Shown: in pieces, positions 33,586 through 36,960 of the stretch
Layout of the letters: each line of letters starts with the position of its first letter
Position numbering within the stretch: position 1 is the stretch's first letter
Origin: Cirrosporium novae-zelandiae
Lineage: Eukaryota
Reading direction: 5' to 3'
DNA: 64,000 bases
Assembly (NCBI GenBank): GCA_026023565.1
Contig: JAPETS010000001.1
Coordinates: 620,001 to 684,000 of the forward strand
Notes under the pieces: generated by a model
Database searches by the model: none
Told to the model about the DNA's origin: nothing
The model's input: the letters and a program-made list of their open reading frames with translations, nothing else
Translations under genes and position numbers: made by a program

Positions 33586-33789
33586 TTCATCGTCCCTCCT
33601 TTCTCACCACAACTCCAAATAAATACTTTACTTGACTTATAAACATATTAGTTTCCTCCTACCTAGCCACCCATGCATCCATTCATCCCCTCATTCCTCC
33701 ATCCATTCATAAACAAAAACACCAACAAACAAAAAAGCAACAGGGGATATTTCAAAAGCAAAAACAAAAAAAACATCATCATTTGCACA

Positions 33790-35208
33790 TTAAACAGGAC
33801 CCTGAGATTCGGCATTTGGATCCAGCTGGGGTAGACTTGGAGAAGGCCTTGGGGTTCCGGTGTCCGGGCGAGAAGTGGTTTGGCTTTCGGTGCCACCGAT
33901 GATAGCGACGTGGGGGTCGGGGATTTGGATATCGAGCTGGGGGGGGGTATTGTTAGTTTGGATGTGTGGTTCCATGCAGAGGATTGGGGCGGCCTGTCGA
34001 TAATATAATAGATAATTGCTCAAGGAAACACTTACTGTCAAATACCCTGTTCTCCTTAGTGGAATTACCCTGACCTCGCCTCCTCTTCCAACCCCTCGGT
34101 TCCATTCATCAATCCACTCCTCCAGATCCCTTAATCTCCGTTTCACACCTGTAATCCCAAAGTCCTCCCAGATCCAGCCCGTCAGCATCCCTAGAATAGC
34201 ATCGACCCAATTCCACCATCCCCAGGGATCATACGCTTTCAGGAGTTCTCGGTTTAATTTCCCTATCAGACGACGGAATTCGGTTTCGGGGAGCCAGGGT
34301 TCGAGGATTTCGGGATAGAGGTTGGAGAATGTGGGTGCGAGGTCACCGGCAACCATCCAGTCGCGACGAATTCGGATTATGCGCGTGGATGCATATTCGG
34401 GAGAGTTGAGAGGGACGTGAACGTTTGGGTGTGGGAAGCATGGATGCGAGGGTCCCCATTCGGGATCTGACTCGGAGCCGGGGAGGGGTGGTGGATTCGA
34501 TGTGAGGGTCGAGGTGGTGGTGGCGGTGTGCGGAAGCTGTGAGCGTATGGAACGGGTGGAGGGTTTATGTCCAAGTTCCGGGTCGCGTTTGGGATCAAGG
34601 TATGAAGATGCCGAGATGGGGACCGGAGGATCAGTAGAGTTCGGTCCGGACTTTGCAAACTCTCCCATCTCGAGATTTTCAATTGTAAGGATCGGTGCAA
34701 TATTTGTAGATGCTGTCCAGCTTGTGCGATTGCGAGGAAGGGCGATGCTGGTGCGGCCAGAGGGAACAGAAGAGTCTGGTAGACTACGTTCAACAACAAG
34801 ACTGCTCGGGCTAGGACCACGGCTCTGTCGTTGTTCTGGGAGAGTCAAGAGTGGAATGTCTCGTGGTTCACTATGAATCTGTCGTGAAGAGGAAGGAAAC
34901 CCAATTGGTTGGGCGGTAGCTTCGGGGCGAGGAATATAATCAATTGGATTCCACGGTTGGAAAGGTGTGTTACGACGAGTTGAAGGCCGTGAATTATTAG
35001 AAAAGGGACTACTTCGCAGCGACCGGCGCGCTGGTTCCTGTCGAGGGGTCGTAAGAGGTCGTGGCAGAGTCTGTGGAGATTCTTGTGGTGGTTCTCGTGG
35101 GCGATGAGCGGTAACGGATGTATCGATGGTTAAGTTTCGTACTGGAGCTTTCTCAGCCGCGCGCGATGATATGTGGATTGTTGGTGGTTGATGGGACGAG
35201 GAAGCCGT
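33790..35208 (-). CDS. ERF4: Ras palmitoyltransferase subunit Erf4/Golgin-A7 family; intron 33937-34035. First in-frame ATG at 34668; frame open to 35217 (probable non-AUG start, e.g. ACG at 35208)
   Basis: WGPSHPCFPHPNVHVP, TRIIRIRRDW, DLAPTFSNLYPEIL, GMLTGWIWED and IPLRRTGYLT|LDIQIPDP motifs; GTAAGT...ACTAAC...CAG intron. Confidence 0.88.
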   Translation of the reverse strand, partial: TASSSHQPPTIHISSRAAEKAPVRNLTIDTSVTAHRPREPPQESPQTLPRPLTTPRQEPARRSLRSSPFSNNSRPSTRRNTPFQPWNPIDYIPRPEATAQPIGFPSSSRQIHSEPRDIPLLTLPEQRQSRGPSPSSLVVERSLPDSSVPSGRTSIALPRNRTSWTASTNIAPILTIENLEMGEFAKSGPNSTDPPVPISASSYLDPKRDPELGHKPSTRSIRSQLPHTATTTSTLTSNPPPLPGSESDPEWGPSHPCFPHPNVHVPLNSPEYASTRIIRIRRDWMVAGDLAPTFSNLYPEILEPWLPETEFRRLIGKLNRELLKAYDPWGWWNWVDAILGMLTGWIWEDFGITGVKRRLRDLEEWIDEWNRGVGRGGEVRVIPLRRTGYLTVSVSLSNYLLYYRQAAPILCMEPHIQTNNTPPQLDIQIPDPHVAIIGGTESQTTSRPDTGTPRPSPSLPQLDPNAESQGPV

Positions 35209-35644
35209 GACCGAGGTTCAGGCCGTAGCCTTGGAATCCTTGGCGGATGTGTTGTGGTGGAAAGGGAAAAAGTTATTGTTGATTTTGTTTTCGAGAGTGT
35301 CGAGTGTGTCGAGTTGGTGGTAATGAGGCTGTCGAATAATAATTCTTGAACTTTTAGATTCGCTTTGGAGTGAAAGCGAAAACGAAAGTGAAAGCGACTT
35401 CGGTAAAGGGGCCTGACGACGATGATGATGCAGGGACTCGCACTAGAGATGGACGATGCCGAGAGAAAGACGACGGACGATACTGAAGAGGACAACGACA
35501 ATGGCATCTTCAACTCGACCAACCAACTCCACAACAACTCCACAGCTCAACAATTCGACTTCATAAAGAAGCACAACAGCTGCTGTCAGGTCGGAGAGTT
35601 ATCTAGGTATCTAATATGTTAGTATGGGCCTTGGATATTTTTTT

Positions 35645-35681
<37 letters not shown>

Positions 35682-36507
35682 TTACGGCTTTTGGAACTAG
35701 AGATTCCTTGGCTTTTGATCAGTGGACAAGTAGTCAAGTTAAGTAAAAAGAAAAAAAAGAAAAAAGAAAAAAAAAAAGGTCTTTTCTTTTGAGAAAAGAG
35801 CAGAAAAATAAATGTGCCCAGATGACATCTGCACATATTAATTATTACTTTCCTGTCAACCCTTTTTTTTTTTTTTAAAAAAAAACCCCCCTTGGTACCT
35901 AGGTCATTTTGTCAATCAATCTGGTCTGGGTGGTGTTAAAGATTAAAGCAACAGTATCCCATGGAATGGATCCATCAATCATGATGTTCGGGCCTTTTCC
36001 AAAGGAGCCAAGAAGTGATAATGTTGGATCATGATGCCACTCAAAGTCCGCGGGATTCAGAAGTAAATGAGGCGGGTCTCCAGATCACCTTATCATTGGG
36101 TCAAATAGTGAAGCAAGTGCCACAGAAATATCTGTCCTCGTAATCCAGCATCATCCGAGTGGTCTACTTTGTTCTTCAATCTCATGCTAATAAAACCCCC
36201 TGGTTCCTAACAATTGAACGGACTTGTGGTTGTGCAAAGGAGATTATTGACTTTATTATTTCTCTCTGTAACTACTGTGGTACTTTCTTTGTTCGCCTAA
36301 GACGGAAGCAGGAACCAGACATCATCTAATTGACCGAGAGAAAGAAAGCAATGAAAAAGAAATAAAGGAAATCAAATTAAAAAACATGAAAAAATCATTA
36401 AAAAAAATAAAAAGGTAAAAATTGTTAAGGTTTGGGGAGGTATATCGCTTGGCTCGTTGAACCATGGAGGGCAATTGGGCAGCCCTACATGTTTCGGGTT
36501 GGGGAAA

Positions 36508-36540
<33 letters not shown>

Positions 36541-36903
36541 GGAGCCAATTTCCAACGGGTTTGTCGGTGGTGACGGGGATGACGGTGTCATCGGTGTTAC
36601 TAGTGTCAAATGCTAATTCCCACTTCGCTCCCTTGTATACTTCTTCTGGAATATTCTAGTCTCACACTAATCCCACACTAACTGCACTAGTTGCACACTA
36701 GTATCCTCCAAGCCCCTTCAAGTCTCCCCTTCAAGTTCCCCCTCAGGACAACGGTCAACTTGCACAATACTTTATTCCTTTTTACACTTTGACTTCTAAA
36801 ACAGTTGCGAGAAAAAAATCCTAAAATCCTAAAAAAGAATAAAGGGGGTTCTATTCTTTGACTTTTGCGAGAGACATTCACTATCTTTAAAATCACCTAA
36901 ACT

Positions 36904-36960
36904 AATTCCAATAATTCCAATAATTCCAATAATTCCAATAATTCCAATAATTCCCAATAA
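36904..36960. repeat. (AATTCCAAT)n 9-bp tandem repeat, ~6 units
   Basis: Read directly. Confidence 0.9.

What the first reader, a model, noticed from the sequence alone, without database searches (positions are those of the whole stretch)
34668..35507. ERF4 appears to have a ~180-aa N-terminal extension started at a non-AUG codon
Seen: on the minus strand the ERF4 frame is stop-free from 35217 (after TGA at 35220-35218) to the first in-frame ATG at 34668. It encodes protein-like sequence (...FQPWNPIDY...DIPLLTLPEQRQSR...). I found no ATG in any frame between 35504 and 34669 (~835 nt), where about 13 are expected at 1/64 per position. A near-cognate ACG in good context (gtcACGgct, 35208) sits at the start of the open frame. 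The nearest upstream ATG (35507) opens an out-of-frame ORF that overlaps the extension and stops at 35130. Knowledge: AUG-free leaders with in-frame extensions mark near-cognate initiation plus leaky scanning. Inference: long (~439 aa) and short (~259 aa) isoforms of the Ras palmitoyltransferase subunit, perhaps controlled by the overlapping uORF.
Basis: partly seen in the sequence, partly recalled or inferred. Interest (0 to 1): 0.75.

Follow-up and report, generated by a model that had tools for sequence, protein, structure and literature searches.

The report
ERF4 extension starting at conserved ACG
This fungal ERF4 gene (a subunit of the enzyme that adds a lipid anchor to Ras) carries a 180-residue front extension that has no ATG and most likely starts at an ACG codon conserved in many related fungi, under a conserved overlapping upstream reading frame, which public gene models get wrong.

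Summary
On the minus strand there is no ATG in any frame between 35507 and 34668. That 839-nt gap is the longest in the window. The ERF4 frame is open from 35217.

I compared 80 fungal ERF4 loci from metagenomes, which fall into 44 clusters including the window.
- 38 clusters carry the same extension, and only 1 of them (L006) has an in-frame ATG ahead of the start candidate.
- The extension evolves like coding sequence: differences per site at codon positions 1/2/3 are 0.165/0.141/0.409.
- Its 5' limit is a T-A-S motif whose Thr codon is ACG in 37 clusters and GTG in 1. Position -3 is A or G in 35 and +4 is G in 35.
- ATGs between this codon and the first in-frame ATG number 25, against 160 expected.
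- That ATG is homologous to the only start in 6 clusters that lack the extension.
- An ATG-started upstream ORF, always in the same frame, runs across the ACG in 34 of 37 evaluable clusters. In the window it is 35507-35130.

The deposited model instead uses ATG 35507 and a 302-nt intron that removes conserved codons. No RNA data were available. This is a new example of a known kind of start.

The parts
35206..35208 (-). ACG, the proposed start codon of the long ERF4 isoform (context gtcACGgct)
   Evidence: It is the first near-cognate codon after the in-frame TGA. The homologous codon is ACG in 37 of 38 clusters and GTG in 1, with a purine at -3 in 35 and G at +4 in 35.
35218..35220 (-). In-frame TGA that closes the ERF4 frame three codons upstream of the ACG
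   Evidence: There is no AG dinucleotide between 35217 and 35154, read, so no splice acceptor could bring in an upstream exon without deleting conserved codons.
34671..35205 (-). ATG-free N-terminal extension, codons 2-180 of the long isoform. It is predicted disordered and carries short conserved motifs (SSRAAEK, WNPIDYIPRP, PLLTLPEQRQSR, LVVERS, GRTSIALP).
   Evidence: Aligns with homologues. Coding-type substitution pattern in relatives. pLDDT is below 55 with no secondary structure.
34666..34668 (-). First in-frame ATG (gagATGg), the proposed start of the 259-aa short isoform
   Evidence: It is homologous to the only start in 6 clusters that lack the extension. Contexts are tabulated.
34036..34665 (-). 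Remainder of ERF4 exon 1, including the Erf4 domain
   Evidence: Pfam PF10256, E = 6.2e-39, 133 bits against a cut-off of 29.3. Weak match to yeast Erf4 chain 8hfc_B.
33937..34035 (-). 99-nt intron (GTAAGT...CAG)
   Evidence: The deposited protein P0001 and all homologues join ...RRTGYLT to LDIQIPDP.
33790..33936 (-). ERF4 exon 2 (48 codons plus TAA)
35130..35507 (-). Overlapping upstream ORF (uORF2). It has 125 codons, starts at ATG 35507 (aagATGc), lies 299 nt upstream of the ACG (299 mod 3 = 2), and ends 76 nt past the ACG.
   Evidence: An equivalent ORF in the same relative frame crosses the start candidate in 34 of 37 evaluable clusters.
35547..35564 (-). Short upstream ORF (uORF1, 5 codons, MKSNC)
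   Evidence: A uORF of 16 codons or fewer starts within 120 nt upstream of uORF2 in 24 of 34 clusters. I made no chance control for this count; ATGs are not rare here (about one per 52 nt in the window), so chance could account for it.
35142..35443 (-). 302-nt intron assumed by the deposited gene model (GTGCGA...CCAG); probably not real
   Evidence: Derived by comparing P0001 with the sequence. It would delete the 23 codons TASSSHQPPTIHISSRAAEKAPV, which are conserved in other lineages.

Best explanation
The ERF4 mRNA of this fungus gives two proteins from one reading frame. (Its closest database match is a model named Cirrosporium novae-zelandiae, class Xylobotryomycetes.)

Some scanning ribosomes start at ACG 35208, which sits in a good context, and make a 439-aa form. 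Its first 180 residues are a disordered extension carrying short conserved motifs. Ribosomes that pass the ACG meet no ATG in any frame for 540 nt. They then start at ATG 34668 and make the 259-aa core protein, which corresponds to the whole protein in lineages without the extension.

An upstream ORF that starts at ATG 35507 runs across the ACG and stops 76 nt beyond it. Ribosomes translating it cannot start at the ACG. How often its ATG is used or skipped therefore sets how many ribosomes can reach the ACG.

Shown here by comparison: the extension is coding, it lacks an ATG, the ACG and its context are conserved, ATGs are depleted, and the overlapping uORF is conserved.

Inferred only: actual initiation at the ACG, the existence of both isoforms, the position of the transcript start upstream of 35507, and any regulation.
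For: 1. Observation. The ATG-free gap of 839 nt is the longest in the window, with 4.9 ATGs expected and P(0) = 0.003.

2. Homologues conserve the frame right up to the ACG. The window reads TSV-T-ASSSHQPPTIHISSRAAEKAPVRN and P0087/L007 read PATTASSHPPLPLLSPRAAEKRPRRN.

3. Sample. The metagenome scan kept the best 80 of 125 loci that encode a relative. With the window that makes 81 sequences. Of these, 12 run off a contig end and 69 have an upstream stop, forming 44 clusters. 38 clusters have 200 or more open codons upstream of the domain. In 37 of the 38 there is no in-frame ATG between the upstream stop and the start candidate; the exception is L006.

4. Codon identity at the limit of conservation. 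It is ACG in 37 clusters and GTG in L038, while ACG makes up 24% of Thr codons in these regions. An in-frame purine(-3)-ACN-GC occurs as ACG in 32 clusters, against ACC 9, ACT 4 and ACA 4. Position -3 is A in 27, G in 8 and C in 3; +4 is G in 35.

5. Upstream stop. The in-frame stop lies 6 codons or fewer upstream of the ACG in 6 cluster representatives: the window, L003, L037, L073, L060 and L043.

6. Substitutions in 26 pairs of related loci, per site at codon positions 1/2/3:
- extension beyond the uORF stop: 0.165/0.141/0.409
- downstream coding sequence: 0.158/0.114/0.479
- upstream of the ACG: 0.39-0.50 at all positions

7. Residue identity anchored on the codon. It is 0.95/0.76/0.33 in the main frame, 0.95/0.47/0.17 in the uORF frame, and 0.125 for the 10 residues upstream.

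8. ATGs between the codon and the first in-frame ATG total 25 against 160 expected.
- In the extension, by frame: 0/24/1 observed against 54/53/53 expected.
- In the downstream coding sequence, by frame: 111/178/45 observed against about 116 each.

9. Six clusters lack the extension and start with an ATG at the homologous place, four in gccATG and two in acgATGg or ataATGg.

10. An overlapping uORF in the same relative frame is present in 34 of 37 evaluable clusters, ending 49-103 nt past the ACG in 27 of the 34. The nearest upstream ATG is in that frame in 31 of 37.

11. A re-assembly of a DNA run shows no base or indel difference over 33700-35634 (the run is possibly the source of the window).
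Against: - There is no direct evidence of translation or of the transcript. No RNA run holds the locus.
- I assigned the homologous start site in each cluster by eye from peptide motifs. Three clusters (L004, L024, L051) have more than one candidate ACG. Choosing sites by the T-A motif partly builds in the +4 and +5 conservation.
- The third base of the ACG is the second base of an Arg codon (CGG) in the uORF frame, so dual coding could also fix it.
- In the overlap zone the substitution pattern is ambiguous (0.263/0.125/0.308). In the clusters that carry LSPRAxEK, the uORF-frame reading YHRxRLK looks about as conserved as that main-frame motif.
- The window has G, not A, at -3.
- The extension alone finds only the organism's own protein in a large protein search. 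Its conservation therefore rests on short motifs.
- The clusters are related by descent, so the counts are not independent events.
Confidence: 0.7

Rival explanations
1. The deposited gene model is right. Translation starts at ATG 35507, and a 302-nt intron (35443-35142) moves the uORF frame into the ERF4 frame, giving 438 aa.
For: The best database hit, P0001 (438 aa), has exactly this structure. GT and AG ends are present. The model explains why the uORF frame is open and starts with ATG.
Against: - The intron would remove 23 codons conserved in other lineages, including SSRAAEK.
- The 21-residue first exon matches no homologue.
- In other lineages the main-frame motifs are contiguous in the genome across the uORF stop, for example LSPRAAEKRP..DVDLEA in L007, L017 and L020, which leaves no room for an intron.
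- The N-termini of deposited homologues all differ upstream of the T-A-S motif. 23 of the 120 listed homologues begin without Met, and 10 of those are flagged partial.
- From recall, 302 nt is long for a Pezizomycotina intron and GTGCGA is a weak donor.
Confidence: 0.1
2. Translation starts at ATG 35507, and a programmed -1 ribosomal frameshift in the overlap fuses the uORF product to ERF4.
For: There are two overlapping open frames, the second has no ATG, and the frame relation is constant in 34 of 37 clusters. This is the classical signature of frameshifting.
Against: - An X_XXY_YYZ heptamer placed for this shift occurs in only 3 of 34 clusters, at different places, and not in the window.
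- The 90 nt after the ACG show no unusual RNA stability in 20 loci, with z from -1.35 to +2.12.
- The region upstream of the ACG is poorly conserved and varies from 62 to 416 nt in length.
- Frameshifting does not explain the ACG and -3/+4 conservation.
Confidence: 0.05
3. The extension is translated from a different or additional near-cognate codon, for example ATC 35178 or ATA 35172, rather than from the ACG.
For: Several in-frame near-cognate codons follow the ACG. The cpc-1 precedent uses several such codons (PMC5487733, passages read).
Against: These codons are not conserved. The T-A-S residues upstream of them are conserved, and only the ACG has the conserved context.
Confidence: 0.08
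4. The region is only a long ATG-free 5' leader, and ATG 34668 is the sole start.
For: ATG depletion is usual in leaders. Six clusters manage with the short protein alone.
Against: The third-position excess of substitutions over 4107 aligned codons equals that of true coding sequence. Motifs such as WNPxNxxPR and PLLTLPEQRRSR are conserved across classes, and the frame stays open in 38 clusters.
Confidence: 0.05

Closest known systems
N-terminal extensions of cpc-1 (the GCN4 homologue) in Pezizomycotina, started at near-cognate codons (Ivanov et al. 2017, mBio, PMC5487733; passages read)
   Same: - The leader has an in-frame extension of about 180 residues with no stop and no ATG.
- An ACG in near-optimal context (A at -3, G at +4) is conserved across Pezizomycotina.
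- A long uORF overlaps the extension in one fixed frame.
- A short uORF lies upstream of it.
   Different: - The gene is different.
- In cpc-1 the near-cognate codons lie upstream of uORF2. Here the uORF starts upstream of the ACG and runs across it.
- cpc-1 initiation was shown in vitro and in vivo. Here nothing is shown experimentally.
Yeast ALA1 (ACG) and GRS1 (UUG), whose non-AUG starts add a mitochondrial presequence (recalled; not checked in any call)
   Same: One gene gives two isoforms: a weak non-AUG start upstream and an AUG downstream reached by leaky scanning.
   Different: Those extensions are short targeting peptides. This one is 180 residues, predicted disordered, with conserved linear motifs and no known function.
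Erf4 / GOLGA7, the accessory subunit of the Erf2 / ZDHHC9 Ras palmitoyltransferase (Pfam PF10256; solved yeast Erf2-Erf4 complex 8hfc)
   Same: The C-terminal 115 residues of exon 1 match the family model at 133 bits and match 8hfc_B weakly.
   Different: The solved yeast chain aligns only to residues 256-388 of the long form, so it has no counterpart of the extension.

Membership tests
ERF4/GOLGA7 family (PF10256) | Match to the family model above its curated cut-off | tested here: met
   133 bits against a cut-off of 29.3, E = 6.2e-39, profile positions 1-114 of 116.
ERF4/GOLGA7 family (PF10256) | Partnership with an Erf2-type DHHC palmitoyltransferase | not tested
   No Erf2 gene was sought, and no complex was predicted.
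Conserved non-AUG-initiated N-terminal extension | In-frame open region upstream of the first AUG with no in-frame AUG | tested here: met
   In the window the frame is open from 35217 to 34668 without an ATG. The same holds in 37 of 38 clusters.
Conserved non-AUG-initiated N-terminal extension | The extension evolves under protein-coding constraint | tested here: met
   Per-site differences at codon positions 1/2/3 are 0.165/0.141/0.409 over 4107 aligned codons in 26 pairs, against 0.158/0.114/0.479 in the downstream coding sequence.
Conserved non-AUG-initiated N-terminal extension | Conserved near-cognate codon in a good context at the 5' limit of conservation | tested here: met
   ACG in 37 of 38 clusters and GTG in 1. 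Position -3 is a purine in 35 of 38 and +4 is G in 35 of 38. Residue identity drops from 0.95 at the codon to 0.125 upstream. Sites were assigned by eye.
Conserved non-AUG-initiated N-terminal extension | Direct evidence of initiation at that codon (footprints, toeprint, peptide or reporter) | not testable with these tools
   No RNA run was listed for the locus, and no ribosome profiling data are at hand.
Leaky-scanning two-isoform gene | No AUG in any frame between the weak start and the downstream AUG | tested here: met
   The window has 0 in 540 nt against 4.0 expected. The 38 clusters together have 25 against 160 expected.
Leaky-scanning two-isoform gene | The downstream AUG is a genuine start | tested here: met
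   Six clusters without the extension start at the homologous Met. Position -3 is a purine in 29 of 38 long clusters.
GCN4/cpc-1-type control by a short uORF followed by a long uORF | A short uORF followed by a longer inhibitory uORF, conserved | tested here: inconclusive
   The window has a 5-codon uORF (35564-35547) followed by the 125-codon uORF. A short uORF lies within 120 nt upstream in 24 of 34 clusters. I made no chance control, and with ATGs about one per 52 nt in the window chance could account for this count.
Programmed -1 ribosomal frameshift | Slippery X_XXY_YYZ heptamer in the overlap, with a downstream structure | tested here: not met
   A heptamer occurs in 3 of 34 clusters and not in the window. 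Folding z-scores range from -1.35 to +2.12 in 20 loci.

The most novel reading that the evidence does not exclude
The overlapping uORF and the ACG form a translational switch conserved across several classes of Pezizomycotina. Changes in start-codon stringency, or in eIF2 availability under stress, would shift ribosomes among the uORF ATG, the ACG and the downstream ATG. That would set the ratio of long to short Erf4 and so tune Ras palmitoylation. A stronger version holds that the uORF is itself under selection: its frame, its end point 49-103 nt past the ACG, and the YHRxRLK reading are all conserved. In that version, ribosomes pausing or terminating in the uORF queue scanning subunits over the ACG and promote its use.
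Probability: 0.2. Interest if true: 0.8.

Novelty: new member of a known kind. Interest (0 to 1): 0.6.

Why it matters
Non-AUG starts that are conserved over hundreds of millions of years are few, and each is a handle on how start-codon choice is regulated. This would add a second Pezizomycotina-wide case beside cpc-1. It has a different geometry, with the uORF spanning the near-cognate codon, and it lies in a gene that controls Ras membrane targeting, which matters for hyphal growth.

It also explains a systematic annotation problem. Deposited ERF4 models in these fungi have unrelated N-termini, invented introns or "partial" flags (23 of the 120 listed homologues lack a starting Met), because gene finders insist on an ATG.

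I found no paper linking ERF4 to non-AUG initiation. The searches were read as listings only, apart from PMC5487733, where I read passages. The library does not cover most subscription journals.

Tried and rejected
- Whole-genome search of the window's own assembly: no genome is held.
- Earlier findings of this scan: none, by place or by words.
- Protein search with the extension alone (residues 1-182): only the organism's own model passed E <= 0.001. The extension cannot be traced by sequence search on its own.
- Sequencing runs: no RNA holder was listed. One DNA run holds the stretch and may be its source. Its contig is identical over 33700-35634 and gives no cover beyond about 35640.
- A hairpin downstream of the ACG that could aid non-AUG initiation: the 90 nt after the codon in 20 loci fold no better than shuffles.
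- Slippery heptamers for a -1 frameshift: 3 of 34 clusters, so rejected.
- Structure prediction of the long form with a 29-row alignment: only residues of about 305-390 are confident, and the extension has no predicted structure. No fold search was made.
- My first ORF-tracing script, which was anchored on tblastn hits, read through stops in 4 sequences (the window, L003, L010, L021). I replaced it with motif anchoring.
- Alignment A1 used 28 homologues picked because they showed the motif, so I do not use its invariant T4 as a frequency.
Full report
**The observation**

The gene lies on the minus strand. ATGs lie at 35507 and 34668 with none between them in any frame. The 839-nt gap is the longest of 2472 ATG-to-ATG gaps on both strands of the window; the next longest is 514 and the mean is 52. 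Dinucleotide-preserving shuffles of the 834 intervening bases give 4.9 ATGs on average, and zero in 0.3% of 2000 shuffles.

The ERF4 frame is open from 35217, just after TGA at 35220-35218, down to a GTAAGT intron at 34035-33937. It resumes at 33936 and ends with a stop at 33792-33790. Residues 280-394 of that frame match Pfam Erf4 at E = 6.2e-39. ACG 35208 (gtcACGg) is the first near-cognate codon of the open frame. ATG 35507 opens a 125-codon ORF in another frame that ends at 35132-35130. Lengths of 439 and 259 aa follow for the two proposed forms.

A re-assembled contig of one public DNA run matches 33700-35634 without any difference. The stop and the frames are therefore not slips of one assembler. 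The run may be the source of the window, so it is not independent.

**The deposited model**

The best protein hit, P0001 (438 aa), is named by its source as a hypothetical protein of a Cirrosporium novae-zelandiae metagenome-assembled genome, class Xylobotryomycetes. It begins MPLSLSSSVSSVVFLSASSIS, continues with I, and then RNLTIDT. Laid on the sequence, this is ATG 35507 followed by 21 codons, a 302-nt intron from GTGCGA at 35443 to CAG at 35142, and then the ERF4 frame. The model thus obtains an ATG by deleting the 23 codons TASSSHQPPTIHISSRAAEKAPV.

**What homologues show at protein level**

Of 1156 proteins with E <= 0.001, the best 120 were listed. Their N-termini are unrelated to one another upstream of a short motif, x-T-A-S/H, about 60-130 residues before a conserved WNPxNxxPR motif. 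Examples are PATTASSHPPLPLLSPRAAEKRPRRN in P0087 and SASTTASYAFHRPRNLSSRPAEEG in P0003. The window reads TSVTASSSHQPPTIHISSRAAEKAPVRN, with the T encoded by ACG 35208.

23 of the 120 do not begin with Met. Ten of these are NCBI records flagged partial. An alignment of the window with 28 homologues falls apart upstream of the T and holds downstream. I picked those homologues because they show the motif, so the alignment is not a frequency estimate.

**DNA of relatives**

A scan of metagenome contigs gave 125 loci encoding a relative, of which the best 80 were kept. I anchored each on HPC[FY]PH or R[IV][RK]RDW and walked upstream to the first in-frame stop.
- All 81 sequences (80 loci plus the window) had an anchor.
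- 12 ran off a contig end and 69 had an upstream stop.
- These formed 44 clusters, defined as sharing more than half of their 5-residue words.
- 38 clusters have 200 or more open codons upstream of the anchor.
- In these 38 the first in-frame ATG lies 149-346 codons into the open frame, except in L006, which has one far upstream.

**The codon at the limit of conservation**

- Listing every in-frame ACG without any context filter showed that the T of the motif is ACG in locus after locus: acaACGgcg, aagACGgcg, aaaACGgcg, accACGgct.
- With a strict filter (purine at -3, ACN, then GC), ACG occurs in 32 of 38 clusters, against ACC in 9, ACT in 4 and ACA in 4.
- ACG is 24% of the 695 Thr codons in the same regions.
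- The clusters that fail the strict filter at the motif still have ACG there. L055, L057 and L077 read CCA ACG GC. L008, L013 and L034 read ACG ACG ACT. L012 reads ACC ACG GAG and L035 reads ACC ACG GAT.
- L038 has GTC GTG GCG, another near-cognate codon.
- With sites assigned by eye, the codon is therefore ACG in 37 clusters and GTG in 1.
- Position -3 is A in 27, G in 8 and C in 3; +4 is G in 35. By column, the most conserved positions are -3, the codon itself, +4 and +5.
- Residue identity over 703 pairs, anchored on the codon, is 0.95/0.76/0.33 for the first three residues in the main frame. It is 0.95/0.47/0.17 in the uORF frame and 0.125 on average for the ten residues upstream.
- The in-frame stop lies 6 codons or fewer upstream of the ACG in the window, L003, L037, L073, L060 and L043. 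An upstream in-frame start is therefore excluded in those.
- In the window there is no AG between 35217 and 35154. Any splice-in must delete conserved codons.

**Is the extension translated?**

In 26 pairs of clusters that are 70-98.5% identical, I counted differences per site at codon positions 1/2/3.
- Between the uORF stop and the first ATG: 0.165/0.141/0.409 over 4107 aligned codons.
- In the downstream coding sequence: 0.158/0.114/0.479.
- Upstream of the ACG: 0.39-0.50 at all positions.

The extension is therefore under protein-coding constraint in the ERF4 frame, and constraint stops at the ACG. In the short overlap with the uORF the pattern is 0.263/0.125/0.308, which fits neither frame alone.

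**ATG depletion**

Between the start candidate and the first in-frame ATG, the 38 clusters hold 25 ATGs against 160 expected. By frame that is 0/24/1 observed against 54/53/53 expected. The downstream coding sequence has 111/178/45 against about 116 each. The in-frame zero is true by definition. The out-of-frame depletion is not.

The first in-frame ATG has a purine at -3 in 29 of 38 clusters. Six clusters lack the extension altogether. They start with an ATG at the homologous place, just before the conserved DP.RD.ELG stretch, four of the six in a gccATG context. This supports ATG 34668 as a true start and the short protein as functional on its own.

**The upstream ORF**

- The nearest ATG upstream of the start candidate is in the same relative frame (distance mod 3 = 2) in 31 of 37 clusters.
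- An ATG-started ORF in that frame crosses the candidate in 34 of 37 evaluable clusters. The exceptions are L031, L056 and L071. L055 has too little upstream sequence to judge.
- Its ATG lies 62-416 nt upstream, and it ends 49-103 nt downstream in 27 of the 34.
- The window's ORF at 35507-35130 (299 nt upstream, 76 nt downstream) is a typical member.
- The contexts of these ATGs are mixed, and many have T or C at -3. That would allow some ribosomes to pass.
- The peptides are not conserved upstream of the ACG. Within the overlap they mirror the main frame: YHRxRLK is the shifted reading of LSPRAxEK.
- A short uORF precedes the long one within 120 nt in 24 of 34 clusters. In the window it is MKSNC at 35564-35547. 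I made no chance control for this count; with ATGs about one per 52 nt in the window, chance could account for it.

**Rivals**

- The spliced model of the deposit deletes conserved codons, has a first exon without homologues, and has no counterpart where main-frame motifs run contiguously across the uORF stop.
- A -1 frameshift would fit the constant frame relation. However, a suitable slippery heptamer occurs in only 3 of 34 clusters and not in the window. The RNA after the ACG folds no better than shuffles in 20 loci.
- An untranslated leader is excluded by the codon-position pattern.
- Other near-cognate codons downstream, such as ATC 35178 and ATA 35172, could contribute but are not conserved.

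**The extension itself**

AlphaFold2 with 29 aligned rows gives confident structure only for about residues 305-390. It predicts no secondary structure in the first 270 residues. The only solved relative, yeast Erf4 (8hfc_B), aligns to residues 256-388. The extension is best described as a disordered region with short conserved motifs: WNPxNxxPR, PLLTLPEQRRSR, SLxVERS and GRTSIGLP. What it does is unknown. Basic Ser-rich motifs suggest regulation by phosphorylation, which is inference only.

**Comparison with what is known**

The closest case is cpc-1 of Pezizomycotina. There a roughly 180-residue in-frame extension without stops starts at conserved near-cognate codons, including an ACG with A at -3 and G at +4, and overlaps a uORF in a fixed frame (PMC5487733, passages read). 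In cpc-1 the near-cognate codons lie upstream of the long uORF. In ERF4 the uORF begins upstream of the ACG and spans it.

Searches for ERF4 together with non-AUG initiation, and for related terms, returned nothing relevant (listings only). The library lacks most subscription journals.

**Verdict**

It is a new member of a known kind. It is conserved across several classes of filamentous ascomycetes and is systematically mis-modelled in public records. It remains to be shown by experiment.

Noticed in passing
window 35547-35564 (-); loci: A 5-codon uORF (MKSNC) lies 57 nt upstream of the long uORF. A uORF of 16 codons or fewer starts within 120 nt upstream of the long uORF in 24 of 34 clusters. 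MYY is shared by L036, L037, L042 and L073. A uORF starting 8-14 nt upstream of the long uORF's ATG (ending just before or a few nt past it) occurs in L008, L009, L024, L032, L034, L038, L051, L057 and L077. The layout recalls GCN4 and cpc-1. I made no chance control, so the count may be no more than chance gives.
   Followed up: partly
window 35130-35208 (-); L007, L012, L017, L020, L035, L036, L037: In the overlap, the uORF-frame reading YHRxRLK is about as conserved as the main-frame LSPRAxEK. Several main-frame third positions never vary, and the substitution pattern there is 0.263/0.125/0.308. Dual coding, or a functional uORF peptide, is possible.
   Followed up: partly
L038:2635-2637: In one cluster the conserved ACG is replaced by GTG (GTC GTG GCG), which is another near-cognate start codon, with G at -3 and +4.
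   Followed up: partly
L044, L054/L058, L063/L070, L064, L065/L066/L068, L075: Six clusters of ERF4 loci have no extension. They start with an ATG (four in gccATG, the others acgATGg and ataATGg) at the place homologous to window ATG 34668. The lineages are not named, so I did not determine whether the extension was gained or lost.
   Followed up: partly
L006:1991-2460: One cluster has an in-frame ATG 145 codons upstream of the conserved ACG with the frame open throughout. It might make an even longer AUG-started form.
   Followed up: no
proteins P0001-P0120: Public ERF4 models of these fungi disagree on the N-terminus. 23 of 120 begin without Met, 10 of them flagged partial. Some, such as P0035 and P0051, read part of the uORF frame (YHRGRLKK) before switching to the ERF4 frame.
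   Followed up: partly
window about 35640-35900 and 36829-36960 (-): Upstream of the leader lie long T and A runs and a TTA microsatellite (about 35650-35680). Further up is a hexamer repeat that reads GIIGIIGII in one frame. They look like low-complexity intergenic or promoter sequence.
   Followed up: no
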